From a virus (taxonomy: Duplodnaviria > Caudoviricetes): a DNA stretch of 52,210 bases. The stretch lies in the IMG/VR virus record IMGVR_UViG_3300044515_000086, positions 1 to 52,210 of that record; one strand, written 5' to 3'. The notes below the pieces were generated by a model. It had not been told where the DNA came from. It made no database searches and worked only from the letters and a program-made list of their open reading frames with translations. A program made the position numbers and the translations under genes. How positions within the stretch are numbered: the stretch's first letter is position 1; every line of letters begins with the position of its first letter. Positions 8,375 to 52,210 of the stretch are shown piece by piece.

Positions 8375-8952
8375 TTGGGCACTCGAATCGTCCCAAGCGC
8401 GCCGGTGAAGCCAGGCGCGGCGAGGTCCATGATGAGGTGCGTTCGATCGCCGCCGCGGTTGATCACGCTGTGCAGGACCTGATGGTTAAACCACCACAGC
8501 TCTCCTACGCCCATGTTGACCATTTCCTCTCCGCAGCGAAAGCGACAGTGAGGATTCGAGTCGAGTACTAAGTGGAAGCGCGCGAAATACCTTGCATACG
8601 CACCCTCATCGACGTGCGGTTTTATTGAGCCGCCGGCGTTTAAACGCACGAGCATGATGCGACCTATCTCTCGAGCCTTTAGGAAACCGACGATGCCACG
8701 AATCAGTTCGACGGTTGCCGGCAGGTTGTCGTTGACGCCAAAGTTGACGCACTCCAAGTTATCGAAGATGCCTTCGATTGAATCCGGTCCACGCATCACA
8801 ATGGTCTCGGTGTCGACGTGCGCCGACCCCTCATACTGCTGACGGATCTGCATGATCTTCCATAAATCTGGCTGCTTCGCTATCTCAGCGACCGCAGCAG
8901 CCACATCGACCGCGGTCATGAGTCGGTGAAAATTCGGATGCTGTTCACTCAT
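8371..8952 (-). CDS. Aspartyl/asparaginyl beta-hydroxylase-like 2OG-Fe(II) oxygenase
   Basis: IKPHVDEG (HxD), RFHLVL, GELWWFNHQVLHSVIN, RTHLIMD. Confidence 0.85.
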   Translation of the reverse strand: MSEQHPNFHRLMTAVDVAAAVAEIAKQPDLWKIMQIRQQYEGSAHVDTETIVMRGPDSIEGIFDNLECVNFGVNDNLPATVELIRGIVGFLKAREIGRIMLVRLNAGGSIKPHVDEGAYARYFARFHLVLDSNPHCRFRCGEEMVNMGVGELWWFNHQVLHSVINRGGDRTHLIMDLAAPGFTGALGTIRVPN

Positions 8953-11653: not shown

Positions 11654-12139
11654 CTACCTTTGGTCGAGCCGTTTGGCCCAGAGAGTGTCGACGAGCGCGT
11701 AGCCGTTACGCTTCAAGATCGAGTCCATCGGAAAGGCGGCTTTGGTGTGGTGATACACCACCTGCACGCCTTCCGCGGCGAGAGACTGATCGCTGTACGC
11801 AATCAAACGGCTGCCTGCGAAAATGCCGCGCCGCTCAGGGGAGATGAAGATCACATCTTGGACCGCCTGGATCGAGCCCATGTAGTGCGGGTTCCTGTTC
11901 ACAATGTGCCCGACGTAGCCGACGAGCTCCCCATCCACGCGCGCACTGAAGCAGCGCAGCTTCCCGAGTTCATCCGCCTTCTCGTACATGGGCCAGTCGA
12001 TGTCCAGCGCAATGTCCTTAAAATGGGCGATCTCGTGGTAGTGGCGCTCGAGCAGCTCCTCGAGGCGGCCGCCATCGCGGATGGCACTTAAAGTCTCGCG
12101 CGCGAATTGCGGCGCGCTGCGAGAATAAGTGTCAGCCAC
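11654..12139 (-). CDS. GNAT-family acetyltransferase
   Basis: DGELVGY, VIFISPERRG and LKRNGY motifs; lies between the nozzle gene and the gp14-like gene. Confidence 0.8.
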   Translation of the reverse strand: MADTYSRSAPQFARETLSAIRDGGRLEELLERHYHEIAHFKDIALDIDWPMYEKADELGKLRCFSARVDGELVGYVGHIVNRNPHYMGSIQAVQDVIFISPERRGIFAGSRLIAYSDQSLAAEGVQVVYHHTKAAFPMDSILKRNGYALVDTLWAKRLDQR

Positions 12140-33877: not shown

Positions 33878-34171
33878 ATGCGCTACCTGCTCCTTACCGC
33901 CCTGCTCGCTCTCGCCGGCTGCGTCACCTCGCCCGTCATGCCACTCGACGACGGCAGCTATCTGGTCTCTATGCACACGGCGTTTAGCATCACGCCCAAG
34001 GGCACGCTCATCGAAAAAGCGGCGATCGAGGCGCAGGCTTTCTGCGCTAAAAGCGGCAAGGACGCTCTCGTCAAAAACTCGCAGGCCACGGGCATATTTG
34101 GCGTGACGAGCAAGAATGCCAACGTGGTGTTTACGTGCGTCGCGCCCACGAAGCCGGGCGAGCGGCAGTAG
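33878..34171 (+). CDS. Lipoprotein, oriented opposite to its operon
   Basis: MRYLLLTALLALAG-C lipobox; two additional cysteines. Confidence 0.75.
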   Translation: MRYLLLTALLALAGCVTSPVMPLDDGSYLVSMHTAFSITPKGTLIEKAAIEAQAFCAKSGKDALVKNSQATGIFGVTSKNANVVFTCVAPTKPGERQ

Positions 34172-34984: not shown

Positions 34985-35053
34985 AGTAACTCTTTGCCCA
35001 TGCTCGGTAAAGTTTTACTTGCAATGCTCGCCCGCTGTAGGTAAAGTCTTACC
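34985..35053 (+). promoter_or_regulatory. Three operators (OL-like) and PL-like promoter
   Basis: AGTAACTCTTTGCC 34985, GGTAAAGTTTTACT 35006, GGTAAAGTCTTACC 35040. TTGCAA(35019)-17 bp-TAAAGT(35042). Confidence 0.8.
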
Positions 35054-36287: not shown

Positions 36288-36438
36288 GTAAACAACTCAC
36301 CGAGCTCGAGCTTGCGACGGCGCGCCACTGGTTTTGCAAGCTGCAGCGCCTCCTCGCGCAGCGCAAAGACCGGGAGCTCGAGCGCCGCTCCAAGCAATCG
36401 CCGCACGCCTTCCTTCGTCTGCAGGCGGGAGAGTAATC

Positions 36439-37350
36439 GTGGCGCTCACTGCCGAACAGATAGTGACACGCCAGACCGGCATCGGCGGCTCGGATGCCGC
36501 GGCCGCGCTGGGCTTGTCGAAGATGAAGACGGCGCTCGAGCTCTACCTTGAGAAGCGCGGCGAGATCGCGCGCGCGGAGCCGGCGGCCAATGATGAGGTC
36601 ATCTGGTGGGGCCGCGCGCTCGAGCCGATCGTGCGCCAGAAGTACGCCGAGACCACGGGGCGCGTGGTGGTGATGCCGCACGGCACGCTGCATCACCCGG
36701 TGCATCGCTTCATGCTCGCGCACGTCGATGGATTGATCGATGGCGAGCCGCGCGGTTATGAAGGCAAGACCGCCTTTCGCTCAACCGGCTGGGGCGATGA
36801 GGGCACCGATCAGATCCCGCGCGAGTACCTGCTGCAGGTGCACCACTATCTCACCGTGTGCGATTTCGAAGTGTGGGATGTGTGCGCACTTATCGGTCGA
36901 CACTTCGCCATTTACGAAGTGCCACGCGATCGCGAGATGTCAGAAATGCTGATCCACGTCGAGGGCGATTTCATGCGCCGCGTGCGCGAGGGTCACCCGC
37001 CTGGTCTTGACTACGATCACCCGACCGCGCGCGACGTGCTCAAAAAACTCTACCCGGGCACCAATGGCGCGCGCCTCGTGGCCTCTGAATCAGCGATCGC
37101 CTGGCGCGAGCAATTGGCCGCGGCGCAGACCGCCGAGAAGACGGCGAAGGCGAACATCGAGAGCTTGAAGTCACGGCTCCTCGAGGAGATGGGCGAGGCG
37201 GCGCTGCTCGCCTTTCCTGACGCGAAGTGCTATCGCCGGCAGGTCACCCAGCGCGCGGGCTACTCAGTCGAGCCCACCGAATACGTCGATTTTCGCCTTA
37301 TAAATGACGGCAAAGCGGCCGCCCTTCTCAAAACACGGAGCACGATGTGA
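36439..37350 (+). CDS. YqaJ-like viral recombinase/exonuclease
   Basis: RQTGIGGSDAAAALG, LAHVDG, YEGKT and QVHHYL motifs. GTG start at 36439. Confidence 0.92.
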   Translation: MALTAEQIVTRQTGIGGSDAAAALGLSKMKTALELYLEKRGEIARAEPAANDEVIWWGRALEPIVRQKYAETTGRVVVMPHGTLHHPVHRFMLAHVDGLIDGEPRGYEGKTAFRSTGWGDEGTDQIPREYLLQVHHYLTVCDFEVWDVCALIGRHFAIYEVPRDREMSEMLIHVEGDFMRRVREGHPPGLDYDHPTARDVLKKLYPGTNGARLVASESAIAWREQLAAAQTAEKTAKANIESLKSRLLEEMGEAALLAFPDAKCYRRQVTQRAGYSVEPTEYVDFRLINDGKAAALLKTRSTM

Positions 37351-38450
37351 GCACACCAGAACGAGCTGTCAATCCCTTCACCGGCGAGGTGGTCGCAGCG
37401 CCCACTGGAGCCTCAAGCCAAGCGCTCGTACAGCGCGAATCTCAGGAGATTCAGGCGCGCATGCTGGTCGCCCGCAATTTCCCGCGCGATCCCATCAAGG
37501 CAATGGACAAGATCATCAACGCCTTCACGCGCCCGACCTTGTGCGAGGACGCACAGTACGCCTACAGCAAGGGAGGCACTGACGTGCAGGGCCTCTCCAT
37601 TCGCGCAGCCGAAGTGCTGGCGCAGAACTGGGGCAATATCTCGTGCGGCGTGGTCGAGCTCACGCGCGCCGGCGGGCAGTCGGAATGCCTCGCGTATGCG
37701 ACGGATCTTGAGACAGGCTTCCATGATGAAAAGCGATTTTTCATCAAGCACTGGCGCGACACCAAGAAAGGCGGCTACCCGATCACTGAGGAGCGCGACA
37801 TCTACGAAGTGGTCGCGAACTATGGCGCCAGGCGCAAGCGCGCGTGCATCCTGGCCGTAATCCCGAGCGATGTACAGGAAGCGGCCGAGCATCAGATCGA
37901 TGTCACGCTCAAGACCAAAATCGAGATCACACCCGACTCCATCAAGGCGATCGTCGAGAAGTTCGAGCCCCTGGGCGTGAACAAGGAAATGATCGAGAAG
38001 CGGATCCAGCGACACCTCGAGGCGATTTTGCCGGCGCAAGTACTCACCCTGCGGCGCATCTACACGTCGCTTAAAGATGGCATGTCGGAGGTCGGCGCGT
38101 GGTTTGAGATCCCGCCGCCGGCGCCGGAGACCGGCAGCGATAAGCCGCCGGCGGATGTTCCGGGCACTCAGACCGACCAGGTCAAAGAGCAGCTGCGGAC
38201 ACGTGCGAGCGCCAAGAAACCCGCGGCCGGCGAGACGGCGATCGACGAGAAGATCCCATTCTTTGATGCCGCGGCCGCAATCGCGGAGCTCAGGAAGGCG
38301 AAGACGCTCGCCGAACTGGAGGCCTCGAAGGTCGCGGTGTGGAAGGACTTCGAGGTCACCAGGCGCGCGATCCCGATCGAGGTCGACGATGCCTACAACA
38401 TGGCCAAGGAAACGCTCGGCGAGCGCGAAGGCAAGCAACTGGAGCTCTAA
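37347..38450 (+). CDS. Putative single-strand annealing/recombination partner of YqaJ
   Basis: Directly follows YqaJ; FPRD and GLSIRAAEVLAQNWGN motifs. Confidence 0.65.
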   Translation: MSTPERAVNPFTGEVVAAPTGASSQALVQRESQEIQARMLVARNFPRDPIKAMDKIINAFTRPTLCEDAQYAYSKGGTDVQGLSIRAAEVLAQNWGNISCGVVELTRAGGQSECLAYATDLETGFHDEKRFFIKHWRDTKKGGYPITEERDIYEVVANYGARRKRACILAVIPSDVQEAAEHQIDVTLKTKIEITPDSIKAIVEKFEPLGVNKEMIEKRIQRHLEAILPAQVLTLRRIYTSLKDGMSEVGAWFEIPPPAPETGSDKPPADVPGTQTDQVKEQLRTRASAKKPAAGETAIDEKIPFFDAAAAIAELRKAKTLAELEASKVAVWKDFEVTRRAIPIEVDDAYNMAKETLGEREGKQLEL

Positions 38451-38451
38451 G

Positions 38452-39870
38452 ATGAAAGTCACCGAACTGTCCGTCGAGAATTTCAAGCGCATCACCTCGG
38501 TTGCGGTGCGGCTCAAGCCACACGTGACCGAGATCTCAGGTCCTAACGGCGCCGGCAAGAGCTCCTACATCGATGCGCTGTGGGTGCTCTTGAAGGGCAA
38601 GAAGGTGGCGCCGGCGGAGCCGATCCGCAAAGGCGCCGAGCGCTGCCGGATCCGCGGCCGCATCGGCGAGTACATGGTCACGCGCATCTTCAAGCGCACG
38701 CGCACCGATGAGGTGACCACCGAGCTTCGCATCGAGCGCGACAACGAATCGATGCCGCCCACCGAGAACTTCATGCGCACCCTGATCGGGGATCACATGC
38801 TCGATCCGGGGGATTTCATCAATTTGAGTTCGGACGCCAAGTTCGACGTCTTTCGCTCCTTCGTGCCGGGCGTCGATTTTAAGGTGATCACGAACCAGAA
38901 CCGCCAGGACTACGAGCGGCGCACCGATGTCAATCGCATGGCCAGGGAGTCGCGCGCGGCCGCGCACATGATCAATGTTCCCGAAGGCACACCCGACACG
39001 GCGATCGACAAGGGGGCGCTCGTGCAGCAGCTGCAGGAGGCGGGCGATGGGAACGCTGCCATCGAGCGCCGGCGGGCGAACCGCGAGAAGGTCGTCGATC
39101 AAATCACGCAACTAAAGGCGCTGCATGCGAGCGCTGATGAGCGTTTCAATGTCTTCGCGACCGAGCGCCAGGCGACCTGCGACGCCCGGGTTGATGAACT
39201 GCTCGCGCAGATGGAGCAGTTGAAGGCTGCTATTGAAGCGACTCAGAAGACGGCGCGAGAGGAAGCCTTAAAGCGCAGCGCTGAAATTGCGGTCGAAGCC
39301 GTGAATGCACTCGATCAAGCAAACGAACTGCAGGCCAAGCTCGACGCGGCGGGTCCGCTGCCGCAGCCCATCGATACGCAGGCCTTGGCCGAGACCATCC
39401 GCCAGGCCGAGTTCGCCAATGAGGCGATCCTCAAGCTCCAGACGCGCGACAAGCACGTCAAGGTCGCCGAGCGCTACGAGGGAGAAGCGGCTGAGATCAC
39501 GGCACGGATGGACGCGCGCGAGAAGGTCAAGCAGGACGCGATTGCCGCGGCGCAGCTGCCGGTCGCTGGCATCACCTTCGGCGATGGCGAGGTGTTCTTA
39601 GATGGCGTGCCGTTCGACCAAGCCTCGACCGCGCAGAAGTTTCGCGTAGGTGTCGCGATCGCGGTCGCCAAGAATCCGACGCTGCGGCTGGTGTGGGTGC
39701 GCGATGCCTCGCTGCTCGATGACCATTCGTATGAGCTGATCAGCAAGCTCGCCGCGGAATTCGATTGCCAGATCCTCTTGGAAACGGTGCGCGCGATCGG
39801 TAAGGACGCGATCGTGCTCGAGGATGGGCACATCAAAGAGGCGGCCGCAGCCGAGGCGGTGCCGGCGTGA
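38452..39870 (+). CDS. SMC/RecN-like coiled-coil ABC-type ATPase
   Basis: VENFKRI, GPNGAGKSS, long coiled coil, ASTAQ signature-like segment, WVRDASLLD. Confidence 0.85.
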   Translation: MKVTELSVENFKRITSVAVRLKPHVTEISGPNGAGKSSYIDALWVLLKGKKVAPAEPIRKGAERCRIRGRIGEYMVTRIFKRTRTDEVTTELRIERDNESMPPTENFMRTLIGDHMLDPGDFINLSSDAKFDVFRSFVPGVDFKVITNQNRQDYERRTDVNRMARESRAAAHMINVPEGTPDTAIDKGALVQQLQEAGDGNAAIERRRANREKVVDQITQLKALHASADERFNVFATERQATCDARVDELLAQMEQLKAAIEATQKTAREEALKRSAEIAVEAVNALDQANELQAKLDAAGPLPQPIDTQALAETIRQAEFANEAILKLQTRDKHVKVAERYEGEAAEITARMDAREKVKQDAIAAAQLPVAGITFGDGEVFLDGVPFDQASTAQKFRVGVAIAVAKNPTLRLVWVRDASLLDDHSYELISKLAAEFDCQILLETVRAIGKDAIVLEDGHIKEAAAAEAVPA

Positions 39871-40310
39871 TTCGAACCGGTCGACCACTCAAGCCGCCCC
39901 TCTACGTGCTGCCGCATGGGATTGAGGTCATCGGTGAATATCCGCCGGGAGGCGCTAATCGATACTGGCGCGTCCGCCTCCGACCGCACCACTTCTTTCC
40001 GACGGTCCGTTCGGTCAGAGGCGGCATCTATGTACGCCGCAGCCGCGTGATCTTGGCATCAAAGCTCGGGCGTGCACTGAGACCGAAAGAGCATGCGCAT
40101 CACAACGATGAGGACCGCGGTAACGACGCCGTCGGGAATATCGAGCCGCTCTCGCCGGCTGCGCACAACCGCCACCATAAGACCGGGTCGCGCCATGCCG
40201 TCATCAGCAAGCGACGTATCAGCGAGTCGCTGAAGCGCGCGTATGCCAGCGGTGCGCGTCGGCGTCCCGTGATTTCAACTCGCGACAACCTCGGAAGGAT
40301 CTCCCGATGA
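39867..40310 (+). CDS. HNH endonuclease (homing type)
   Basis: KLGRALRPKEHAHHNDEDRGNDAVGNIE...HNRHH. Confidence 0.75.
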   Translation: MIRTGRPLKPPLYVLPHGIEVIGEYPPGGANRYWRVRLRPHHFFPTVRSVRGGIYVRRSRVILASKLGRALRPKEHAHHNDEDRGNDAVGNIEPLSPAAHNRHHKTGSRHAVISKRRISESLKRAYASGARRRPVISTRDNLGRISR

Positions 40311-40927
40311 GCTTAGCTATTTTTTACGATTCGGAGACGACCGGCCTGCCGCTTTTCAGCGAGCCGAGCGAGGATCCGCGCCAGCCGCACATCGTGCAGC
40401 TCGCCGCCTGCTTAGTCGACCTCGAGACTAAGGCGACGATCGCGAGCATGGATGTGATCGTGCAACCGCGGGGCTGGGAAATCCCGGATGACGTCGCGGC
40501 CATCCATGGCATCACGACTGAGCACGCGACGGACGTCGGCATCCCAGAATCGGTCGCGGTCAACATGTTCATCGAACTGTATCGATTCCGGCCGCGCATC
40601 GCGCATAACGAGGCCTTCGACGCTCGTATTTTACGCATTGCATTAATTCGTCACGCGATCAACGCCGCACTTCCGGATCTGTGGAAGGGGGGGGCAGCCA
40701 TTTGCACTCAGGCGCTCTCGACGCCGATCTTAAAGCTCCCACCGACCGCGAAGATGATCGCCGCGGGCCGGCGCCATCACAAGAGCGCGAACTTGCGCGA
40801 GGCCTATCGGCACTTCACTGGCAACGAGCTCGTCGGCGCCCATCAGGCCATGGTCGATGTGCAGGCCTGCATGGCGGTTTACTTCGCGATCCTCGAGCAG
40901 ACGCGCCGCGCCGCGGCCGCGGTGTAA
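40307..40927 (+). CDS. DEDDh 3'-5' exonuclease (DnaQ-like)
   Basis: YDSETTG, IHGIT, AHNEAFD and AHQAMVDV motifs. Confidence 0.9.
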   Translation: MSLAIFYDSETTGLPLFSEPSEDPRQPHIVQLAACLVDLETKATIASMDVIVQPRGWEIPDDVAAIHGITTEHATDVGIPESVAVNMFIELYRFRPRIAHNEAFDARILRIALIRHAINAALPDLWKGGAAICTQALSTPILKLPPTAKMIAAGRRHHKSANLREAYRHFTGNELVGAHQAMVDVQACMAVYFAILEQTRRAAAAV

Positions 40928-40952
40928 CTCAACAACTTCCGGAGACTAGTCA

Positions 40953-42485
40953 ATGACCATCGCATCCACAGCCGACGGCACCCGTGCCCTCTCGATCGGG
41001 GAGTTGAAAGTATCGACCACCGCCGGCCAGGCCGAACGGCGCAAGCATTTCGATAAGGTTGAACTCGATCAGCTCGCCAAGTCGATCAAGAAAGTGGGTG
41101 TGCTCTCGCCCATCCTCGCTCGCCCGGTCAACGGACACTTCGAGATCGTGTTTGGCGAACGGAGATTCATCGCCGCGAAACTCGCCGGCCTCACCGCGAT
41201 CGACGTCTCCGTGCGAACTTTAAGCGATGAGCAGGTGCTCGAGGTGCAGCTGATTGAGAACCTGCAGCGCGAGGGGCTGCATCCGCTCGCGGAGGCGGAA
41301 GGCTACGAGCAGCTGCAGGGGTACGGGCATTCTGCCGAGGAGATCGCCGACAAGCTCGGCAAATCGAAGGCGTACGTTTACGGCCGTATGAAACTGCTGG
41401 CGCTCGGGCCCGCGGCCCGCGAGGCCTTCTACCGCGGCGAATTGAACGCATCGACCGCGTTGCTGCTCGCCAGGATCCCCGTCGAGTCCCTGCAGTCGGA
41501 TGCCCTGAAGGCGATTACCGGCAAGCGCTGGAATAACGAAGTGATGTCGTTCCGCGAGGCCGCCGAGGTCATCCGGCGCGATTACATGACCAATCTGTCG
41601 GACGCAGGATTCCCCACCGAGGATGCGACGCTGGTGGCGGCCGCGGGCGCATGCGGCGCATGCCCGAAGCGCACGGGCAATCAGGCTGAACTCTTCGACG
41701 ATGTGAAAAGTGGGAACGTATGCACTGACCCGATTTGCTTCAAAGCCAAGCGCCAGGCGCACGCCGCGCGGGCGATCGCGCAGGCGAAGGAAGACGGGCA
41801 GCAGGTAATCACCGGCGCTGAGGCGAAGAAGATCATCCCATGGCAGCACAGTCTGGCGACGGGCTACTCAAAGCTGTCGGACGTATGCTACGACGACAAG
41901 AAGCAACGCACATACGCGCAGCTGCTCGGCAAGGACTTCAAGCCGACGCTCGTCCAAAACCCCGAGACCGGCGTGTTGGTCAAAGTCGTCACGCCGGCCG
42001 CCGCCAAGCAGGCGAGGCTCGACAACAATATCAAGCCGCCGACCTACAGCCAGCCGACGCGCGGCGCGAAATCCGGTGGGACGTCAAATAAAGCCGAGAC
42101 CGCATTTCGCGAGGCTCTATTTCTCGCCATTCACGCCAAAGCGCCGAAGAAGTTGAGCCGCCACGTGCTCGAGACGATCATCGAACACGAGCTGGATGCC
42201 ATCGGTGAACTGCCCAATGTTCTGACGAAGGCCTGGGGATGGGATGCCGACACGCACAACCTCGAGAGCCTCACCGAGCCGCAGCTAAACCAGTTCCTGT
42301 TCGAGCTGTGCGTTGTCGAGGAGCTCAACATGTCGGCGTACGCGCAGACGCCGAAGCTGCTCAATCTCGCCAAGTCGATGAAGATCGACACGAAGAAGAT
42401 TCGCAAGGCTATCGCCGCCGCGGCCAAGCCGGCGACGAAGGCGAAAGCGGCGCCTAAGAAAAAGTCGACCACCAAAGGAAAATAA
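40953..42485 (+). CDS. ParB/RepB/Spo0J-family protein with Cys-rich central region
   Basis: GVLSPILAR, FGERRFIAA, ENLQRE, HTH, and CGACPKRT...CTDPICF. Confidence 0.88.
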   Translation: MTIASTADGTRALSIGELKVSTTAGQAERRKHFDKVELDQLAKSIKKVGVLSPILARPVNGHFEIVFGERRFIAAKLAGLTAIDVSVRTLSDEQVLEVQLIENLQREGLHPLAEAEGYEQLQGYGHSAEEIADKLGKSKAYVYGRMKLLALGPAAREAFYRGELNASTALLLARIPVESLQSDALKAITGKRWNNEVMSFREAAEVIRRDYMTNLSDAGFPTEDATLVAAAGACGACPKRTGNQAELFDDVKSGNVCTDPICFKAKRQAHAARAIAQAKEDGQQVITGAEAKKIIPWQHSLATGYSKLSDVCYDDKKQRTYAQLLGKDFKPTLVQNPETGVLVKVVTPAAAKQARLDNNIKPPTYSQPTRGAKSGGTSNKAETAFREALFLAIHAKAPKKLSRHVLETIIEHELDAIGELPNVLTKAWGWDADTHNLESLTEPQLNQFLFELCVVEELNMSAYAQTPKLLNLAKSMKIDTKKIRKAIAAAAKPATKAKAAPKKKSTTKGK

Positions 42486-43097
42486 ATGAACGCAGTATCG
42501 ATCGATATTCCGCCGGCCGTGGCCGCACTCCTCGAGGGCGGCTTCTATGCCGGCCGCATTCTCATTGCGGGCGTTCTCTATGCGCTGATCGTGGCACCCA
42601 AAGCTGAGGGTGAGCGCAAGCCGGGTGTGTGGTCCAAATCGGAGAAATCGATTGCCGGTGCCATGAGCTGGAATGACGGCCTGGCGAACACCGGCGCGAT
42701 GTCCGATGCGGGAAGCGCGCTCGCGAAGTGGGCGCAGGGCCTCACCATCGGCGGCTATTCGGATTGGTACCTGCCGGCGCTCGATGAGCTCGAGCTCTGC
42801 TATCGATATCTGAAACCGACCGCGGAGCCAAGCTATCTTTGGAGCCGATCGGGCATCAACGTGAGCGCGGTCCCACCGACGTATCCGTATGTCGCGGATT
42901 CCCCGGCGCAGACCGAACACGAGATCTTCCGCGCCGGCGGCGCGGAGGCCTTCGCCGATGAAATTTACTGGAGTTCGACGCAGCACGCCTCTGGCAGCAA
43001 CTACGCCTGGAGCCAGCATTTCAGCAACGGCTGCCAGAGCTACTGGTTCAAGGGCCATCACTTCAGGGCTCGCGTCGTCCGCAGATTAGCCATTTAA
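42486..43097 (+). CDS. DGR target 1, DUF1566/Lcl-like C-type-lectin-fold protein
   Basis: GGFYAG, DWYLPALDELE and YWSST motifs; C-terminal VR. Confidence 0.9.
   Translation: MNAVSIDIPPAVAALLEGGFYAGRILIAGVLYALIVAPKAEGERKPGVWSKSEKSIAGAMSWNDGLANTGAMSDAGSALAKWAQGLTIGGYSDWYLPALDELELCYRYLKPTAEPSYLWSRSGINVSAVPPTYPYVADSPAQTEHEIFRAGGAEAFADEIYWSSTQHASGSNYAWSQHFSNGCQSYWFKGHHFRARVVRRLAI
42978..43088 (+). repeat. DGR variable repeat VR1
   Basis: 111-nt ungapped match to the TR with 14 mismatches, all at TR adenines (hand alignment). Confidence 0.97.
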
Positions 43098-43136
43098 CCA
43101 TTCATCTATTTTTCCAAGGGCTTTAAAGGGGCATCC

Positions 43137-43640
43137 ATGAACGTGACCAAGAACGGCATCACCATCACCATCTCGGACGCTGAGGTCGTCAAGATGGCGC
43201 TCGAGCGCCTGAACGACGCACCGAGCCCCGTCGCCTTTGTCCACCTCGAATCCGACGTCCCTCGCATTGGCGAACACTGGTCGACTCAGGGCGGCATCTA
43301 TGCAGGCGTGGCGCGTGGCCGCGATGGTGCGCCGGACTATCACCTGATCGTAGGCCCTGAGTTCGACGGTCAAACGGACTGGGACGGCGCCGGCAAGTGG
43401 GCGGCCGGCGTGACAGTCCATGGGTTTTCTGACTTCGCGCTGCCGTTTCGCAAGGAGCAGGCGCTCAGCTTCGGGAACGTGCCCGAGCTATTTAAGGAGG
43501 AGTACTACTGGTCGTGCGAGCAGCGCGCCTCTAGCAGCAACTACGCCTGGGACCAGCATTTCAGCAACGGCTACCAGACCACCTGGTACAAGGACGATCA
43601 CATCAGGGCTCGCGTCGTCCGCAGATTAGTAATTCAGTAA
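43137..43640 (+). CDS. DGR target 2, DUF1566/Lcl-like protein
   Basis: QGGIYAG, DFALPFRKEQ and YYWSCEQ motifs; C-terminal VR. Confidence 0.9.
   Translation: MNVTKNGITITISDAEVVKMALERLNDAPSPVAFVHLESDVPRIGEHWSTQGGIYAGVARGRDGAPDYHLIVGPEFDGQTDWDGAGKWAAGVTVHGFSDFALPFRKEQALSFGNVPELFKEEYYWSCEQRASSSNYAWDQHFSNGYQTTWYKDDHIRARVVRRLVIQ
43521..43628 (+). repeat. DGR variable repeat VR2
   Basis: 108-nt ungapped match to the TR with 10 mismatches, all at TR adenines (hand alignment). Confidence 0.97.
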
Positions 43641-43667
43641 TTCGATAATTTTCTTTCCCCAATCAGC

Positions 43668-44027
43668 ATGGCCATCCATACCAAGTTACCGATCTACAAA
43701 GTCGCCTATGACCTCCTGAGCGTCGCCGTGGACTATGTGCAGAACATGCCACGGGACTTCAAGGCGGCCATCGGCGGCCGAGTGCGCGATCTGTGCGTCG
43801 ATATCGTCCTGTCGATCTTCAAGGCCAATTGCGCGGCCGAGAAGACCCCGTACCTCGATCTGCTGCTCGAGCAGGTCGAGGAGCTGCAGCTGCTCCTGCG
43901 GCTTTGCCAGGACAAGCGATTCATCTCAAAGCCGCAGTACGCGGCCGCGGTGGAGTTGACGAACAGCGTCGGTCGGCAGGCGAACGGATGGAGGAAACAC
44001 TTTGCAGCAGCATCGCCCGTTACCTGA
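43668..44027 (+). CDS. avd: Accessory variability determinant (four-helix bundle)
   Basis: 119 aa, LPIYKVAYDL...MPRDFKAAIG...VGRQANGW; between the targets and the TR. Confidence 0.9.
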   Translation: MAIHTKLPIYKVAYDLLSVAVDYVQNMPRDFKAAIGGRVRDLCVDIVLSIFKANCAAEKTPYLDLLLEQVEELQLLLRLCQDKRFISKPQYAAAVELTNSVGRQANGWRKHFAAASPVT

Positions 44028-44195
44028 TCGTCAAGGCGGTCCGGTCAGTGCGACGATTAATCTGGTCGCGCCGCTGGCATCCACAGCCACCGACAAGCGC
44101 ATCCGGGATATCGCCGGTCGTCCCACGATCCGGAGTCGATCCCGCGCAGTTTCCCCACTGAGAGTTCGGTGGGGCGACATCGATAGCGCGAACCT

Positions 44196-44306
44196 ACGCA
44201 GCACGCCTCTAGCAGCAACAACGCCTGGAACCAGAATTTCAGCAACGGCAACCAGAACAACTGGAACAAGGACAATCACATCAGGGCTCGCGTCGTCCGC
44301 AGATAA
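44196..44306 (+). ncRNA. DGR template repeat (TR)
   Basis: AAC-rich (10 AAY codons in the VR frame) master copy of VR1 and VR2, ending in TAA where the VRs have TTA. Confidence 0.97.
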
Positions 44307-44340
44307 TCATGCAAGGGAAGGCCATGCCGATTTTTCCTTC

Positions 44341-45420
44341 TTGGAGCTCACGCAAGCCTATTTCGACTGCCGCGAGCACAAGCGCAACACCCGATCCGCC
44401 CTCGCCTTCGAGCAGAACCTAGAACACAATCTGCTCCGGTTGTGGGATGACCTGCAATCGGACGCCTATCGCCCAGGCCCATCGATCTGCTTCGTCATCA
44501 CACGCCCAAAGCCGCGGGAGGTGTGGGCCGCCAACTTCCGCGATCGCATCGTGCACCATCTGCTCTATAACCGGATCGCGCCACGCTTCCACCGAGCCTT
44601 CATCGCGGATTCCTGCGCCTGCATTCCTGGCCGCGGCACCCTCTACGCTGCGAAGCGTCTCGAGGCCAAGGTGCGCAGCATCACCCAGAATTGGCAGCGG
44701 CCTGCGTTCTACCTTAAATGCGACCTCGCGAACTTCTTCGTCAGCATCGACAAGCGCATCGTCCGGGATCTGCTCGCGCCCAAGGTTACTGAAGCCTGGT
44801 GGCTGCGCCTCGCCGAATCGATCCTGTTTCACGACCCGCGCTCGAAGGTCGAGCTGCGCGGACATCGAGAGCGCCTCGCGCTCGTGCCGGCCCACAAGAG
44901 CCTCTTCAATCAGGTCCCGGGGAAGGGGCTGCCGATCGGCAACCTCTCCTCGCAGTTCTTTGCGAACGTGCTGCTCGATTCCCTCGATCAGTACGTCAAA
45001 CAGAAGATAGGCGCGGCGTACTACATCCGCTACGTCGATGATTTCCTGCTGCTGCACGAATCGGCGCAATGGTTGAACGCCGTTCGGGCGGACATCGAGG
45101 CGCATCTTAAGACGCTTGGGCTGCGGCTGAATCCCACCAAGACGATCCTGCAGCCGATCGAACGTGGGATTGACTTCGTCGGCCAGGTGATCAAGCCGTG
45201 GCGGCGTACGCTGCGCCGGCGCACGTACCGCGACGCGCTTCACCGAGTCGCAACGATTACGAACGCCGATCTCTTTCAGACCGCCAACAGCTACTTCGGG
45301 CTGCTACGCCAGGCGACGCACAGCCGCCGCGATCGGATGCGACTCGCGAAGGTCATTGGCCGCCGCGGCCGCGCGGTGGATCTGGCGCTCACCAAAACCT
45401 ATCGCGGGAATTTTCTTTAG
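44341..45420 (+). CDS. DGR reverse transcriptase (start uncertain; frame open from 44002)
   Basis: KPREVWAANFRDRIVHH, LKCDLANFFVSID, GLPIGNLSSQFFAN, YIRYVDDF and GIDFVG motifs. Confidence 0.95.
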   Translation: MELTQAYFDCREHKRNTRSALAFEQNLEHNLLRLWDDLQSDAYRPGPSICFVITRPKPREVWAANFRDRIVHHLLYNRIAPRFHRAFIADSCACIPGRGTLYAAKRLEAKVRSITQNWQRPAFYLKCDLANFFVSIDKRIVRDLLAPKVTEAWWLRLAESILFHDPRSKVELRGHRERLALVPAHKSLFNQVPGKGLPIGNLSSQFFANVLLDSLDQYVKQKIGAAYYIRYVDDFLLLHESAQWLNAVRADIEAHLKTLGLRLNPTKTILQPIERGIDFVGQVIKPWRRTLRRRTYRDALHRVATITNADLFQTANSYFGLLRQATHSRRDRMRLAKVIGRRGRAVDLALTKTYRGNFL

Positions 45421-45861
45421 ATGCCGATCCGCCCCGAAAACCTCGCTCGCTACCCTGCTGACTGGCAGCAGATCCGGGAGCGGATCCGCAAGCGCGCCGG
45501 CAACCAGTGTGAGGAGTGCGGCGTCGCGAACTACGCGCTCGGCGGGCGCCTGCGCGACGGCACTTGGTATAAGGCACTCCCCCTCGGGGACAACGGCCTG
45601 GCGCTGCAGTGGCCGGCGGCTGGCAGCTGGGCATGGTGCGAGCGATTCGGTCATCACATGATGCTGCGCATCGTCAAGATTGTTTGCACGACTGCGCACC
45701 TCGATCACGTTCCGGAGCATTGCTGGGACGACAACCTGCGCTTCTGGTGCCAGCGATGCCATCTGCGTTACGACCACGCAGAGCACCAGCGCCATGCCTA
45801 CGAGACCCGGCGCGCCGGCCGCGCGATCGAGATGTTCCCAACACAGGAGTCAACGGGATGA
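45421..45861 (+). CDS. HNH-like Zn-binding protein
   Basis: YPADW...CEECG...TAHLDH...NLRFWCQRCH. Confidence 0.75.
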   Translation: MPIRPENLARYPADWQQIRERIRKRAGNQCEECGVANYALGGRLRDGTWYKALPLGDNGLALQWPAAGSWAWCERFGHHMMLRIVKIVCTTAHLDHVPEHCWDDNLRFWCQRCHLRYDHAEHQRHAYETRRAGRAIEMFPTQESTG

Positions 45862-46619: not shown

Positions 46620-46975
46620 GTGTAATGACCGCATCGGACCATCGGCGCATCGAGGAACTCGCGGAGAAGCGGTTCAGCGTCGGCCGGATCGCTCAACTGA
46701 TCGGCCGCAACAAATCAACGGTGAATTGGTACATGTACTGCAACGGACTGCGCGCGCCGAAGAAGCTCGAAAAGCCGATCACGTATGTGCGCGGCGGCGT
46801 TCGCGTACATCGGTTTACCGACGAAGAGGACACCTTTATCGAGGCGTTGCGGATCCAGGGATGCACGCCAGAGGCAATCGCCGGTCATGCATCCGCCAGG
46901 TTCGGCACGGAACGTAAACACCATTCAATTCGCTGCCGCCTCAAGATGCTGGCCGCCAGGGAACTCGCGGAATGA
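46616..46975 (+). CDS. Tandem-HTH DNA-binding protein
   Basis: FSVGRIAQLIGRNKSTVNW and FTDEED...EAIA...SIRCRL. Confidence 0.65.
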   Translation: MSVMTASDHRRIEELAEKRFSVGRIAQLIGRNKSTVNWYMYCNGLRAPKKLEKPITYVRGGVRVHRFTDEEDTFIEALRIQGCTPEAIAGHASARFGTERKHHSIRCRLKMLAARELAE

Positions 46976-48822
46976 GCAAGATGATCTTAGGTGCCTGGTC
47001 GGACGGCGGTGATGTAAAGCTCGACCTCGCGCGCTTGCTGCTTACTCGTATGTTGATCCAAGCGAATAGCGGCAACGGCAAGAGCTGGGCGCTGCGTAGG
47101 CTTTTCGAACGCGCCGCGGGCCTGGTGCAGCAGCTCATCGTGGATCCGGAAGGGGAATTCGCGAGCCTGCGCGAGAAGCATGATTTCGTGATCATCGCGG
47201 CGAACGGTGGCGATGCTGTCGCGCATCCTCGCACCGCCGCGTTGCTCGCAATCAGGCTCTTGGAGACCGAAGCTTCTGCCGTTCTTGATATCTCGGAGTT
47301 AAAGGCGGCCGACCGTCATACCTTCGTGCGGCTGCTGTTCGAGTCCTTGATCGATGCGCCTAAGAACCTGCGCCATCCGGTCCTGGTCGCCCTCGACGAG
47401 GCGCAAATGTTCGCTCCGGAGAAGGGCCAGGGCGAGAGCGAGGCGACTGATTCGGTGATCGACATGGCGACGCGCGGCCGCAAGCGAGGCCTGTGCCTGA
47501 TAGCGGCAACGCAGCGCATCAGCATGTTCCACAAGGGCGTCGCCGCGGAGCTGAAAAACCGCATGATCGGCGGGACGAGCCTGGACGTCGACGTGAAGCG
47601 TGCGGCGTTCGACTTAGGAATGCCGCCGAAGGATGCGCTGGTGGTCTTACGCGCGCTCGAGCCCGGGCACTTCTATGCGTTCGGTCCCGCATTGGCTCAG
47701 CTTGAGCCGCGGGAATTTGTTGTGGGTGATGTTGAGACCAGTCACCCGAAGGTTGGTCACCGGCAGGCGGCGCCGCCGAAGCCCACCGCGGCGATCGTCG
47801 CGCTGCTACCAAAACTCGCGGATCTCGCAAAGGAAGCCGAGGAGCGCGCGCGCAGCATCGATGACTTGAAGCGCGAGCTCGCCCAGGCCCGCCGCGAGCT
47901 AACCGTCGCCAAGAAACAGCAGCCCGCGCCCACGCCGGCGCCCGTCATCAAAGGAGATCCAGCGGCCGAGCGCCGGGCCGCGGCGCAGATTACAAAATTA
48001 ACCGCGGCCATCGAGGAACTCATGAAATTCATCGTGACGGTAACGGCCAAGGATTTCGAGGGCACCGCTGGCATCGACGTCGAAGCCATGCGCAAGGCGA
48101 TCGAGGCAGCTGTGGAACAGTCTCGTCGGCTCGTCGAGAAATCGATGGATGTGCGCAACGCGCAGTTGAAGTCTCTGCAGTCGGAAGCCTCGAAGATCGT
48201 CACACGCGTGCGCAAGCTGCTCGATTCTCAAGAGGTCAAGATCGAACTTGAGGTAAAGAAGAATGCGCCGTTCACAGTGGCGCCCACGCCAACGCGCGCG
48301 CCGGCGGCGCCGCGGCCGCCACCTAAATCAAATGGCGCGTCCGAATCTGGTCTGAGTACTCCGCGCCAGCTGATATTGGATAAGTTGGCATGGCTCGAAT
48401 CGATGGACCTGTATCCGGCTCCTAAGGAAACGCTGGCTGCGGTCTGCGGCGTAAGCCCCACGTCCGGCGGCTACTTCAATAATTTAGGTGCGCTGCGCTC
48501 ATCAGGCCACATCGATTATCCGCAGCCCGGCATGGTGGGATTTACTGATGCCGGTCGCGCGGCCTCCAATCCTCCGGATGGCGATGGTCGCGAAGTGCAC
48601 GAGCATTGGCTCGATATCGTCAGCACTCCACAGCGGGCGATCCTGGCCGCGCTCATCGCTAAGCACCCCAACGCGATGGGGAAGGATGAGCTCGCCGGCG
48701 AGATCGGCGTCTCATCGACGAGCGGCGGGTATTTCAACAATCTCGGACGACTGCGCACGCTTGGAGCTATCGACTATCCCTCGCCCGGTCAAGTAAATCT
48801 CACGCAGTACGTGATGCCGTGA
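46972..48822 (+). CDS. HerA/FtsK-like P-loop ATPase with coiled coil and duplicated C-terminal domain
   Basis: ANSGNGKS, IVDPEGEF, ALDEAQ and RGRKRG...ATQR motifs; two SGGYFNNLGxLR...IDYP repeats. Confidence 0.85.
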   Translation: MSKMILGAWSDGGDVKLDLARLLLTRMLIQANSGNGKSWALRRLFERAAGLVQQLIVDPEGEFASLREKHDFVIIAANGGDAVAHPRTAALLAIRLLETEASAVLDISELKAADRHTFVRLLFESLIDAPKNLRHPVLVALDEAQMFAPEKGQGESEATDSVIDMATRGRKRGLCLIAATQRISMFHKGVAAELKNRMIGGTSLDVDVKRAAFDLGMPPKDALVVLRALEPGHFYAFGPALAQLEPREFVVGDVETSHPKVGHRQAAPPKPTAAIVALLPKLADLAKEAEERARSIDDLKRELAQARRELTVAKKQQPAPTPAPVIKGDPAAERRAAAQITKLTAAIEELMKFIVTVTAKDFEGTAGIDVEAMRKAIEAAVEQSRRLVEKSMDVRNAQLKSLQSEASKIVTRVRKLLDSQEVKIELEVKKNAPFTVAPTPTRAPAAPRPPPKSNGASESGLSTPRQLILDKLAWLESMDLYPAPKETLAAVCGVSPTSGGYFNNLGALRSSGHIDYPQPGMVGFTDAGRAASNPPDGDGREVHEHWLDIVSTPQRAILAALIAKHPNAMGKDELAGEIGVSSTSGGYFNNLGRLRTLGAIDYPSPGQVNLTQYVMP

Positions 48823-50816: not shown

Positions 50817-51023
50817 GTGAAGTGGGTAACGATCAAAAAGGCTGCCGAATTATCGGGTTACACCGAGAAGGCAATCGAGGCGAAACGAGCCGACGGCACC
50901 TGGCTGGAGAACGTCGTATGGATAAAAGCCCCGGATGGCCGTATCTTGATCTCAACGGAGGGGATCGACGCATGGGCAGAGGGTCGGGCGTGCGCGCCGC
51001 AAGCAGAACCTCAATCGAGATAA
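50817..51023 (+). CDS. xis: Excisionase
   Basis: WVTIKKAAELSGYTEKAI...GTWLENVVWIKAPDGRILI; overlaps the int start. Confidence 0.8.
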   Translation: MKWVTIKKAAELSGYTEKAIEAKRADGTWLENVVWIKAPDGRILISTEGIDAWAEGRACAPQAEPQSR

Positions 51024-52210
51024 CGTTCGAATATCGCAGCGTCCGCTGCCGCCAAAAGCTCAAGCTCCCACCCAACCATGCAAACCTCAAATATGCGCAA
51101 CGCTTCAAGGCGACGATCGAGCACGAGATCGAAACCGGCGTGTTCGACTACGCCAAGCATTTCCCGCGCAGCCCTCGCGCCAAGTTATTCGCCAAAGTGC
51201 CAGCGACAGTTGTCACCGTCGGAGAACTGCTCACCGAATGGCTGGCCTCAGTTCAACGCAAGCTCGAGCCTGAGACCTATGATCTCTACGCGCGCTACGT
51301 CCGCACGACCTGGCGTCCACGTTTCGGCCGGTCGTTCCTTGTCGACTTGACGGCGGCGCGCCTCGAGGAGTGGATCGGCGAGCAGACGACGACGCGCAAA
51401 CGTATCTTGAATCTGCTGACGCCGCTGCGCCAGGCGCTTAGGTTCGCCGTGCATCCGCAGAAGTATCTGACCGTCGATCCGATTGCGAAGATCAAGATCG
51501 AGAGGCCGGCCGGCATAAAGAAGTCCCCGATCGACCCGTTCTCCATCGCGGAGATCGACGCGATCCTCGCCGTGCTCGATCCGCCGAGAGCCAACATGGT
51601 GCAGTTTTGGGTGTGGACTGGGCTTCGCGTCGGCGAGCTCGTCGCGCTCACGTGGAATGACATCGACGCCGAGCGCAGCACGGCCAGCATCACGAAGTCA
51701 GCCCGCGGCAGCCGGCGCAAAGCGCCGAAGACCCAGGCCGGGTTGCGCGACGTCAAGCTGCTGCCGCCAGCATTAGAAGCCCTGGGGCGGCAGAAGGCGG
51801 TGACCCGACTCCTACACCGGGAGATCTTTTTAGACCCAGGCGCACCTGTCCGGTATCGCGACGCCGAGGGAAAATGGCACACGCCGACCGGCAACGTCGA
51901 GCGCAAGCCGGAGACCGTCAACCAGCCGTGGAAGAGCGACAAGGATATCCGCAAGTGGTGGCGGCAGGCATGCGTGGCGGCCGACGTGCGCTACCGGTTC
52001 CCGCGCCAGCTGCGGCACACCTATGCATCGTGGATGCTCAAGTTTCGCGAGGAGCCATTGTGGATCTCCAAGCAGATGGGCCACGCGAGCGTCTCGGAGA
52101 CGCTGGAGACCTATGCGAAGTACATTCCGAGCATGAGCCCGGACGCCGGAATGGGCGCGTACGCCGCAATTATGGCGTCGAAAAAGGACACGATTGGGAC
52201 GCGGTCGTGA
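50972..52210 (+). CDS. int: Tyrosine integrase with N-terminal arm-binding domain
   Basis: TGLRVGEL, KT, LRHTYASW and MGH...TYAKY catalytic motifs. Confidence 0.95.
   Translation: MGRGSGVRAASRTSIEITFEYRSVRCRQKLKLPPNHANLKYAQRFKATIEHEIETGVFDYAKHFPRSPRAKLFAKVPATVVTVGELLTEWLASVQRKLEPETYDLYARYVRTTWRPRFGRSFLVDLTAARLEEWIGEQTTTRKRILNLLTPLRQALRFAVHPQKYLTVDPIAKIKIERPAGIKKSPIDPFSIAEIDAILAVLDPPRANMVQFWVWTGLRVGELVALTWNDIDAERSTASITKSARGSRRKAPKTQAGLRDVKLLPPALEALGRQKAVTRLLHREIFLDPGAPVRYRDAEGKWHTPTGNVERKPETVNQPWKSDKDIRKWWRQACVAADVRYRFPRQLRHTYASWMLKFREEPLWISKQMGHASVSETLETYAKYIPSMSPDAGMGAYAAIMASKKDTIGTRS

What the first reader, a model, noticed from the sequence alone, without database searches (positions are those of the whole stretch)
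42486..45420. Intact DGR diversifying two tandem non-tail proteins in the early operon
Seen: one TR (44196-44306) matches VR1 with 14 mismatches and VR2 with 10, all at TR adenines and with no indels. avd and a YVDD RT are intact. Established: this is DGR mutagenic retrohoming, which in the BPP-1 paradigm varies a tail receptor-binding protein. Here the targets are 203-aa and 167-aa stand-alone lectin-fold proteins with no signal peptide or fibre domain. They lie over 25 kb from the tail genes on the opposite strand, downstream of the repressor-controlled PL-like promoter. I saw no VR in any structural gene. Inference: a hypervariable intracellular binder pair, for example to neutralise host defence proteins or rival elements, rather than a tropism switch.
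Basis: partly seen in the sequence, partly recalled or inferred. Interest (0 to 1): 0.92.

Follow-up and report, generated by a model that had tools for sequence, protein, structure and literature searches.

The report
Phage DGR varying two free lectin proteins
This soil prophage carries a working-looking mutagenic retroelement that rewrites two small stand-alone binding proteins encoded among its early genes rather than a tail fibre, and the same layout recurs in many other phages.

Summary
One template repeat (TR 44198-44304) matches VR1 and VR2 at the 3' ends of two paralogous C-type-lectin-fold (Lcl_C/DUF1566) genes. There are no indels and every core mismatch sits at a TR adenine. Avd and a DGR-type RT are intact.

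The element is not unique. I found the same cassette of one to four small free targets, Avd, RT-15, TR and RT in dozens of viral contigs, betaproteobacterial prophages and cultured phages (Magia, LPPA56, vB_E192a). It sits among recombination, ParB, HNH and integrase genes in phages with different tail types. Near-identical relatives differ only at TR-adenine positions of a VR, so this lineage is active in nature. More distant RT relatives fuse the same lectin module to tail-fibre N-termini. T1 and T2 lack any such anchor, signal peptide or lipobox.

A non-tail, early-operon target is therefore well supported. An intracellular anti-defence binder remains an untested inference. The Magia genome paper already flagged such short targets without giving a function. 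Interest is moderate to high: this is a new variant of a known kind, and cultured relatives make it testable.

The parts
42486..43097 (+). T1, DGR target 1. It is a 203-aa stand-alone C-type-lectin-fold protein (Lcl_C/DUF1566). Its ATG follows the ParB-like stop codon directly.
   Evidence: Pfam Lcl_C 1e-12, above the cut-off. phrog_4245 1.1e-30. AF2 pLDDT 93.7, pTM 0.91. Foldseek top hit 8q4e, Legionella Lcl C-terminal domain.
42980..43086 (+). VR1, the variable repeat at the 3' end of T1.
   Evidence: 13 A-site mismatches to the TR core, plus the boundary A/T at TR 44305, and no indels. All 11 changed codons within the TR-matching part (12 with the stop-for-Leu codon at the boundary) are non-synonymous.
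43137..43640 (+). T2, DGR target 2. It is a 167-aa paralogue of T1: a short lectin domain plus an N-terminal beta-beta-alpha mini-domain and a linker.
   Evidence: Pfam Lcl_C 3e-5, below the cut-off. phrog_4245 3.2e-14. AF2 pLDDT 91. Foldseek top hit 8q4e at E 4.5e-5, TMt 0.73. 38% identical to T1 over 123 columns, with a 43-residue insertion in T1.
43520..43626 (+). VR2, the variable repeat at the 3' end of T2.
   Evidence: 9 A-site mismatches to the TR core plus the boundary A/T, and no indels.
43668..44027 (+). avd, the DGR accessory four-helix-bundle protein (119 aa).
   Evidence: Pfam bAvd 3.4e-13. phrog_3206 'Avd protein of DGR' 9.6e-32. NCBIfam DivGenRetAVD 6.5e-16, below the cut-off.
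44011..44198 (+). RT-15 structured RNA motif (Rfam RF03018). It runs from the 3' end of avd to the first base of TR.
   Evidence: cmscan 151.7 bits against a gathering score of 82, full model 1-192.
44198..44304 (+). TR, the template repeat. It is rich in AAC/AAT codons (10 in the frame of the VRs).
44341..45420 (+). DGR reverse transcriptase. Homology to relatives begins at 44335, and the only in-frame start candidate nearby is TTG 44341. The open frame itself runs back through TR to 44002.
   Evidence: phrog_1423 1.1e-110 and Pfam RVT_1 1e-15. YVDD and IGNLSSQ in the translation. Start candidate.
36334..42485 (+). Upstream genes of the same tightly packed operon: RecE-like exonuclease, phrog_3657 protein, SMC/AAA ATPase, HNH, RNase_T exonuclease and a ParB-like protein.
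   Evidence: Gaps or overlaps between genes are 0-39 nt.
50822..52210 (+). Tyrosine integrase at the distal end of the same strand.
   Evidence: phrog_1 1.7e-55. The ORF closes at the window end.

Best explanation
Shown:
- This is an intact DGR of a distinct clade, marked by the RT-15 RNA lying 5' of TR.
- Its RT-Avd complex would copy the TR transcript with adenine-specific errors and write the cDNA into the last ~107 nt of two adjacent paralogous genes, T1 and T2.
- T1 and T2 are free, single-domain Lcl_C/C-type-lectin-fold proteins. They have no tail-fibre anchor, signal peptide or lipobox.
- They are encoded in the early recombination-to-integrase operon, not the virion module.

Inferred:
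- They are made early in the infected or induced cell and act there as soluble binding modules whose ligand surface is re-randomised in each phage lineage.
- Most likely they act in phage-host or phage-phage conflict, by binding and blocking variable defence or competitor proteins. Each progeny genome would carry a different binder that is expressed as soon as it enters the next cell.
- The ligand is unknown.
For: DGR anatomy and A-only mismatches.

Free lectin fold with no anchor:
- T1 and T2 hit only Lcl_C and phrog_4245.
- The AF2 models are compact. The hydrophobic stretch of T1 at residues 19-36 forms core beta-strands at pLDDT >90.
- The best solved match for both is the Lcl C-terminal domain, followed by CTLDs.
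- Among 102 targets of the close clade there are 0 lipoboxes, and the 6 hydrophobic windows all lie inside the domain.

Operon context in the window: genes from 36334 to 45861 are separated by at most 39 nt. T1 abuts the ParB-like gene and an HNH gene abuts the RT.

Conserved context in relatives:
- Magia: repressor, then lectin target, nuclease/RecT/ATPase, lectin target(s), Avd-RT and integrase.
- vB_E192a and LPPA56 have the cassette 4-5 kb upstream of the integrase.
- A PHROG tally of 128 neighbour ORFs from 26 loci gave integrase 17, HNH 8, ParB 6 and methyltransferase 5. No head or tail family was among the 25 families shown, of 151.
- No homologue of the window's virion proteins was found near the cassette in any of 53+16 loci.

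Tail-type independence:
- Magia is a myophage (PMC7883833).
- Cruim01 is a siphovirus (PMC11256456, Table 2 passage).
- The window has podovirus-like tail tubular hits.
- 1 of 5 related IMG/VR records has a sheath gene.

Contrast with fused forms: in RT relatives at 49-60% identity, 3 of 7 long targets carry tail-fibre N-termini fused to the same phrog_4245 module.

Homologues without a DGR sit in the same early-left position in D3, PAN70 and Medea1.

Activity in the lineage:
- L019 vs L073: 3 differences in 7519 nt, all in a VR at TR-A positions.
- L065 vs L067: 13 differences in 7235 nt, all in one VR, 12 at TR-A positions.
Against: - I have no expression, proteomic or interaction data for any member.
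- The promoter and terminator scans are at chance level, so 'early' rests on gene order.
- The same lectin module is a bona fide tail-fibre tip in related DGRs. It is also the C-terminus of long phage fibres in BFVD. Weak BFVD matches include small 'virion structural proteins' of jumbo phages 201phi2-1 and SL2 (E 6e-4 and 5e-2, TMq 0.37 and 0.30).
- Small adhesins can be encoded away from tail genes, and on a circular map the cassette is only about 10 kb from the distal virion genes.
- PADLOC gives no hit for T1 or T2, and no anti-defence family was matched.
- For the window itself, variation is only hinted at. In an independent soil run, a 282-nt contig spanning VR1 has 13 differences while four flanking contigs have 0. 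The positions were not listed, and another contig in the RT gene has 14 differences, so a second strain may explain it.
- The nearest relative (L056) has lost most of its RT yet keeps T1 and T2. Continuous diversification is therefore dispensable.
Confidence: 0.6

Rival explanations
1. T1 and T2 are receptor-binding proteins after all. They would be small trans-acting adhesins or adaptors that dock non-covalently on the virion, or on a conserved fibre, and switch tropism as Mtd does. They would simply be encoded outside the late operon.
For: - The CLec/DUF1566 module is fused to tail-fibre N-termini in related DGRs: L048 phrog_327 at 2.6e-70, plus L049 and L055.
- BFVD matches include long tail fibres and weak hits to small virion structural proteins of jumbo phages.
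- T2 and many relatives carry a conserved N-terminal beta-beta-alpha or helical 'neck' that could be a docking or oligomerisation element.
- Published surveys assign most viral DGR targets to tail proteins (PMC8144416, section 9 read).
Against: - T1 and T2 contain no virion-anchoring domain.
- The genes are on the opposite strand from all virion genes, in an operon with recombination genes.
- The same cassette occurs in myo-, sipho- and podo-type phages. A shared docking site across these tail types is unlikely.
- No structural family appears among the listed neighbour families.
Confidence: 0.2
2. The targets serve the lysogen rather than the infecting phage. Expressed from the prophage, they would act as variable sensors or blockers of superinfecting phages (exclusion or defence), like rex or sie genes next to a repressor.
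For: - Homologues sit just downstream of the repressor gene in D3 (three genes after c1) and PAN70. Magia gene 57 lies near the immunity repressor.
- Bacterial DGRs are reported to diversify putative cytoplasmic antigen sensors in conflict systems (PMC10907252, abstract in the search listing only).
- A review proposes cytosolic VR proteins as pathogen-recognition modules (PMC10053308, passages).
Against: - In the window the targets lie 7.5 kb and about ten genes downstream of the XRE-type regulator. A terminator-like hairpin follows that gene (34992-35012).
- They share an operon with lytic-cycle recombination genes, which a repressor would normally silence.
- No effector partner or PADLOC family was found.
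Confidence: 0.15
3. The cassette is a hitch-hiking or decaying element with no present adaptive role for the targets.
For: The nearest relative, L056, has a truncated RT. Medea1 and D3 keep the lectin genes without any RT.
Against: - All six parts are intact here.
- The VR changes are all non-synonymous and keep the frames open.
- The architecture is conserved over RT divergence down to about 59% identity, in 55 loci.
- Recent VR-only changes are seen in relatives.
Confidence: 0.05

Closest known systems
Bordetella phage BPP-1 DGR (mtd-avd-TR-brt)
   Same: It has the same parts and logic: Avd, a TR with adenine-specific mismatches, a VR at the 3' end of a C-type-lectin-fold target, a GC-rich identical stretch at the VR end, and a YxDD RT with the IGxxxSQ motif. 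The IGxxxSQ hallmark is recalled, not taken from a call.
   Different: - Mtd is a tail-fibre tip protein in the structural region (PMC5758913 introduction passage). Here the two targets are free proteins of 203 and 167 aa in the early operon.
- The structured RNA differs. RT-10 lies between TR and RT in BPP-1 (PMC5737381 passage). Here RT-15 lies between avd and TR, and only about 36 nt separate TR from the RT start.
Burkholderia phage Magia DGR (MT701587; also vB_E192a, vB_PL1, Pseudomonas LPPA56, Cruim01)
   Same: - RT 65-67% identical at the protein level and Avd 51%.
- RT-15 RNA directly upstream of TR.
- Short lectin-fold targets next to avd, plus a remote one.
- Placed among recombination genes upstream of the integrase.
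   Different: - Magia is a myophage of a different host and has no ParB-like neighbour.
- Its targets are shorter (120-154 aa).
- Its authors named genes 47 and 57 as targets. The blastn match to the window's VR2 end lies in gene 46, which I did not resolve further.
Legionella pneumophila DGR target LdtA and the Lcl C-terminal domain
   Same: Same domain family (DUF1566/Lcl_C, the CLec2 class of VRs; PMC5758913 passage). 8q4e is the best structural match for both T1 and T2.
   Different: LdtA is a surface lipoprotein of a bacterium (PMC5758913 passage). T1 and T2 are phage-encoded and have no export signal.
DGR targets without membrane signals in CPR bacteria and DPANN archaea, and DGR-diversified putative antigen sensors of multicellular bacteria
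   Same: These are precedents for DGR targets that may act inside the cell (PMC8144416, section 9; PMC10907252, listing abstract).
   Different: Those are cellular genes, and some are fused to signalling or NTPase domains. Here the targets are bare lectin domains in a phage early operon.

Membership tests
Diversity-generating retroelement (DGR) | A TR/VR repeat pair whose differences fall at TR adenines | tested here: met
   24 of 24 core mismatches fall at A in the two VRs, with no indels.
Diversity-generating retroelement (DGR) | VR at the 3' end of the target ORF, followed by a conserved GC-rich end (IMH-like) that diverges from TR just after it | tested here: met
   The VRs end 9-12 nt before the stop codons. 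The 21-nt stretch GGGCTCGCGTCGTCCGCAGAT is identical in all three copies, followed by TTAG in both VRs and AAT in TR. IMH function itself was not tested.
Diversity-generating retroelement (DGR) | DGR-type reverse transcriptase with an intact catalytic YxDD | tested here: met
   phrog_1423 1.1e-110, RVT_1 1e-15. YVDD and IGNLSSQ are in the open frame.
Diversity-generating retroelement (DGR) | Accessory protein Avd | tested here: met
   Pfam bAvd 50.5 bits against a cut-off of 40. The NCBIfam equivalog scores 58.5 against a cut-off of 80, so it is not met at that stricter level.
Diversity-generating retroelement (DGR) | Ongoing mutagenic retrohoming | tested here: inconclusive
   Relatives show VR-only, A-site differences between near-identical contigs. 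For the window itself there is only one 13-difference contig over VR1 in an independent run, with the positions not listed.
Lcl_C / DUF1566 C-type-lectin-fold domain (PF07603) | Profile match above the gathering score, and the CLec fold | tested here: met
   T1 scores 48.8 bits against 34.9. T2 scores 24.7, below the cut-off, but both models match 8q4e best and T2 aligns with T1 at 1e-22.
Phage tail fibre / Mtd-like receptor-binding protein | N-terminal virion-attachment or fibre domain, and a gene in the structural module | tested here: not met
   T1 and T2 hit no tail PHROG or Pfam family, whereas long relatives do. The genes lie on the opposite strand in the recombination-integrase operon.
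Phage tail fibre / Mtd-like receptor-binding protein | Presence in virions and an effect on adsorption | not testable with these tools
   This needs proteomics and genetics.
RT-15 RNA (Rfam RF03018) | Covariance-model score above the gathering threshold, next to an RT gene | tested here: met
   151.7 bits against 82, full length. Also found in 5 of 5 close relatives scanned and in 0 of 8 more distant ones.
Known anti-phage defence proteins (PADLOC) | Profile match for T1 or T2 | tested here: not met
   0 families for T1, T2 and Avd. No library of anti-defence proteins was available.

The most novel reading that the evidence does not exclude
The RT-15 clade of phage DGRs may be a counter-defence (or inter-phage exclusion) diversifier. 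Temperate phages of Proteobacteria would use mutagenic retrohoming to generate a repertoire of small cytoplasmic lectin-fold 'antibody-like' binders, expressed from the early operon. Some progeny in every burst would then carry a binder that neutralises whatever variable immune or competitor protein the next host holds. That would move DGR function in phages from the cell surface to the cytoplasm. It would mirror the DGR-diversified antigen sensors proposed for bacteria.
Probability: 0.3. Interest if true: 0.9.

Novelty: new variant of a known kind. Interest (0 to 1): 0.62.

Why it matters
Phage DGRs are taught as tropism switches acting on tail fibres. Large surveys leave the non-structural viral targets as 'unknown'. 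This window belongs to a coherent, widespread clade with four recognisable features:
- an RT-15 RNA 5' of TR;
- one to four free lectin targets;
- an integrase-proximal early operon;
- independence from tail type.

For this clade the tail-fibre explanation fits poorly. Cultured members exist (Magia, LPPA56, Cruim01, vB_E192a), so the role of these variable proteins can be tested directly. If they act inside the cell, it would be the first case of a virus using targeted hypermutation for an intracellular binding repertoire.

Two further points follow. The orphan Rfam motif RT-15 gains a biological home in a DGR. Its position 5' of TR also raises a mechanistic question about how cDNA synthesis is primed in this clade.

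Tried and rejected
- Complex prediction for T1 with T2 (alignments A1 and A2) gave no answer, with scores 0.01 and 0.00. It is evidence neither way.
- The look-up of sequencing runs listed no RNA holder. All holders are soil-metagenome contig sets.
- Read laying gave contigs only. It did not list the positions of the 13 differences over VR1 in run X3, and no X3 contig listed (102 pieces were not shown) spans the middle of VR2. I could not use it as proof of adenine-specific variation.
- An exact 27-mer just upstream of VR1 found nothing in viral contigs.
- Scans with the RT found no near-identical strain. The best RT identity was 87% over a truncated 100-residue match in L056 among viral contigs, about 75% among metagenome contigs and 70% among genomes. 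A population comparison of this exact phage was therefore not possible.
- The promoter and terminator scan was at chance level: 1 promoter-like site against 4.3 expected, and 19 terminator-like sites against 16.3.
- No tRNA was found for an att site.
- My TR/VR finder scores non-A mismatches heavily, so its segment ends are biased towards A-only mismatches. It missed L004 (where TR lies inside the annotated RT ORF), L024, L031 and L032, and L152, L060, L085 and L086.
- The 55-locus census is not fully de-duplicated. L029/L153 and L072/L141 look the same. Some ORF starts there are over- or under-called.
- The PHROG tally shows only the 25 commonest of 151 families, so rare structural hits could be hidden.
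- Literature searches for a described function of early-operon DUF1566 or DGR targets found none. Supplements were closed and may hold per-locus data in the surveys PMC5758913 and PMC8144416, and the RT-15 description in PMC5737381.
Full report
**Observation.** The window is a 52,210-bp IMG/VR provirus record rated 100% complete. No host genome is held.

An ungapped comparison puts TR at 44198-44304, in register with VR1 (42980-43086) and VR2 (43520-43626). VR1 has 13 mismatches in the core and VR2 has 9, all at TR adenines. Both VRs also share a T where TR has A at 44305.

TR encodes ten AAC/AAT codons in the VR frame, and every changed codon is non-synonymous. Only these three copies occur in the record.

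Other parts:
- T1 (203 aa) matches Pfam Lcl_C above its cut-off. T2 (167 aa) matches below it. Both match phrog_4245.
- They are paralogues: 38% identity, with a 43-residue insertion in T1.
- Avd and the RT are intact.
It runs from the end of avd to the first base of TR.

**Structure of the targets.** AlphaFold2 with alignments of relatives gives confident compact models: T1 at pLDDT 93.7 and T2 at 91.0.
- The hydrophobic segment of T1 at residues 19-36 forms core beta-strands, not a membrane helix.
- T2 has an N-terminal beta-beta-alpha mini-domain and a low-confidence linker.
- For both, the best solved match is the Legionella Lcl C-terminal domain (8q4e), followed by C-type lectin-like domains.
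- Among predicted viral structures, the matches are small stand-alone DUF1566 proteins (including one from Pseudomonas phage D3), the C-termini of long fibres, and, weakly, small virion structural proteins of jumbo phages.

**Genome context.**
- The minus strand from about 25.1 kb down to 0.25 kb carries terminase, portal, major head protein, two tail-tubular-like proteins and large virion proteins. A replication initiator lies at 32.2-33.1 kb.
- A Cro-like ORF (minus strand) and an XRE-type HTH gene (plus strand) diverge at about 34.5 kb.
- The plus strand then runs RecE-like exonuclease, phrog_3657 protein, SMC-type ATPase, HNH, RNase_T exonuclease, ParB-like protein, T1, T2, Avd, TR, RT, HNH, HerA-like ATPase and finally the integrase. 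Gaps through the DGR are 0-39 nt.

This is the layout of a lambdoid early-left operon. The promoter itself was not found.

**Relatives.**
- RT searches returned 51 IMG/VR loci, 80 metagenome loci and 36 loci in named genomes.
- Those with RT at or above ~59% identity come largely from Betaproteobacteria such as Variovorax, Polaromonas, Methylibium, Limnobacter, Castellaniella and Chromobacterium.
- In 50 of 54 sources of the first set, my script found 77 TR-VR pairs, and 68 of these had no non-A mismatch. The scoring favours that outcome.
- In a 55-locus census of the close clade (window included, not fully de-duplicated), 32 loci have two VRs, 6 have three, 1 has four and 16 have one.
- The 102 targets have a median length of 167 aa and no lipobox. 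Tandem small targets are therefore the rule in this clade.
- Cultured members have the same order upstream of an integrase: Burkholderia phages Magia and vB_E192a, and Pseudomonas phage LPPA56.
- A tally of 128 neighbour ORFs from 26 loci is led by integrase (17), HNH (8), ParB (6) and methyltransferase (5). No structural family is among those shown.
- RT-15 RNA was found directly upstream of TR in 5 of 5 close-clade loci scanned, and in none of 8 loci with RT at 40-60% identity.

**Contrast within the wider family.** Among seven long targets (407-712 aa) of the more distant RT relatives, three carry tail-fibre N-terminal domains joined to the same phrog_4245 lectin module. The module can therefore be a classical receptor-binding tip. 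T1 and T2 are that module without the anchor.

**Tail-type independence.** The cassette occurs in:
- a myophage (Magia; PMC7883833, whole text);
- a siphovirus (Cruim01; PMC11256456, table passage);
- this podovirus-like provirus;
- an IMG/VR record with a sheath gene, beside four records without one.

**Homologues without a DGR.** tblastn of T1 finds 31 phage records, 25 of them from Pseudomonas. All matches are annotated as hypothetical or left unannotated.
- In D3 the homologue lies three genes after the c1 repressor.
- In PAN70 it lies between the repressor and the integrase.
- In Medea1 two tandem DUF1566 genes follow Erf/YqaJ/SSB, with no RT.
- The nearest relative of the window, L056 (T1 75%, T2 65% identical), has an RT cut off after about 110 residues and replaced by an 849-aa ORF. 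It keeps T1, T2, Avd, RT-15 and TR.

The lectin genes are thus an early-operon family in their own right, and the DGR is an add-on.

**Activity.**
- L019 and L073 differ at 3 of 7519 positions, all in the VR at TR-adenine positions.
- L065 and L067 differ at 13 of 7235 positions, all in one VR, 12 of them at TR-adenine positions.
- L069 and L093 differ at 3 positions: one is a VR adenine site and two lie at a contig end.
- L016 and L050 differ at 14 positions, all indels or N, and none in a VR.

For the window itself, an independent soil run holds four contigs with no difference. One 282-nt contig across VR1 has 13 differences, and none of the X3 contigs listed (102 pieces were not shown) crosses the middle of VR2. 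A contig in the RT gene also has 14 differences, and the positions were not listed. This is suggestive only.

**Interpretation.**

Shown:
- It is a complete DGR of the RT-15 clade.
- It has two free lectin-fold targets.
- It sits in the early operon.
- The architecture is conserved and the lineage has been recently active.

Inferred:
- The targets act as soluble proteins inside the infected or induced cell.
- An early-expressed variable binder has direct genotype-phenotype linkage at the next infection, which suits counter-defence or competition with other elements.

The main rival is a trans-acting adhesin. The module's use in tail fibres elsewhere keeps that rival alive. A lysogen-protective role is suggested by repressor-proximal homologues.

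No paper in the searched library assigns a function to these proteins. The Magia announcement only notes short targets, and surveys list short DUF1566-only targets and 'unknown' viral targets.

**An open mechanistic point.** In BPP-1 the structured RNA (RT-10) lies between TR and the RT gene and was proposed to prime cDNA synthesis (PMC5737381 passage). Here only about 36 nt separate TR from the RT start, and the structured RNA is 5' of TR. Priming must therefore use either sequence inside the RT coding region or a fold-back of RT-15. I could not test this.

**Verdict.**
- Observation: confirmed.
- Interpretation: partly supported.
- Novelty: a new variant of a known kind, and one member of a widespread but undescribed clade.

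Noticed in passing
window 44011-44198 (+): A full-length Rfam RT-15 RNA lies between avd and TR. This orphan motif appears to be the DGR RNA element of this clade. It lies 5' of TR, unlike RT-10 in BPP-1, which lies 3' of TR.
   Followed up: partly
L056:7001-9894: The nearest relative has its RT truncated after about 110 residues and followed by an 849-aa ORF (helicase/methylase-like by eye). T1, T2, Avd, RT-15 and TR remain, and the VRs still differ from TR only at adenines.
   Followed up: partly
window ~33880-34171 (+): A small ORF with a classic lipoprotein signal (MRYLLLTALLALAGC...) lies between the replication genes and the Cro-like gene. It could be a moron or an exclusion lipoprotein.
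   Followed up: no
window 8371-8952 (-) and 11654-12139 (-): An aspartyl/asparaginyl beta-hydroxylase-like cupin gene and a GNAT acetyltransferase gene are embedded among the large virion protein genes.
   Followed up: no
window 46972-48822 (+) and 38077-39870 (+): A HerA/DUF87-type ATPase and an SMC/RecF-like ATPase flank the DGR in the same operon. Both give weak PADLOC hits (HerA, mad3, mad8, AriA, PtuA) that probably reflect shared P-loop domains.
   Followed up: partly
L004 (Magia) 8638-9102: The blastn match to the 3' end of the window's VR2 falls in Magia gene 46 (annotated hypothetical, directly upstream of avd). The authors instead named genes 47 and 57 as targets, so Magia may have three targets.
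   Followed up: no
L175 (Medea1) 4250-6069: Two tandem DUF1566 genes and a third small ORF sit after Erf/YqaJ/SSB, with no Avd or RT nearby. This is a DGR-less version of the target pair.
   Followed up: partly
L144/L145 (one Burkholderiaceae MAG contig): Two identical copies of the whole cassette lie 62 kb apart on one 403-kb contig. This could be two related prophages or an assembly repeat.
   Followed up: no
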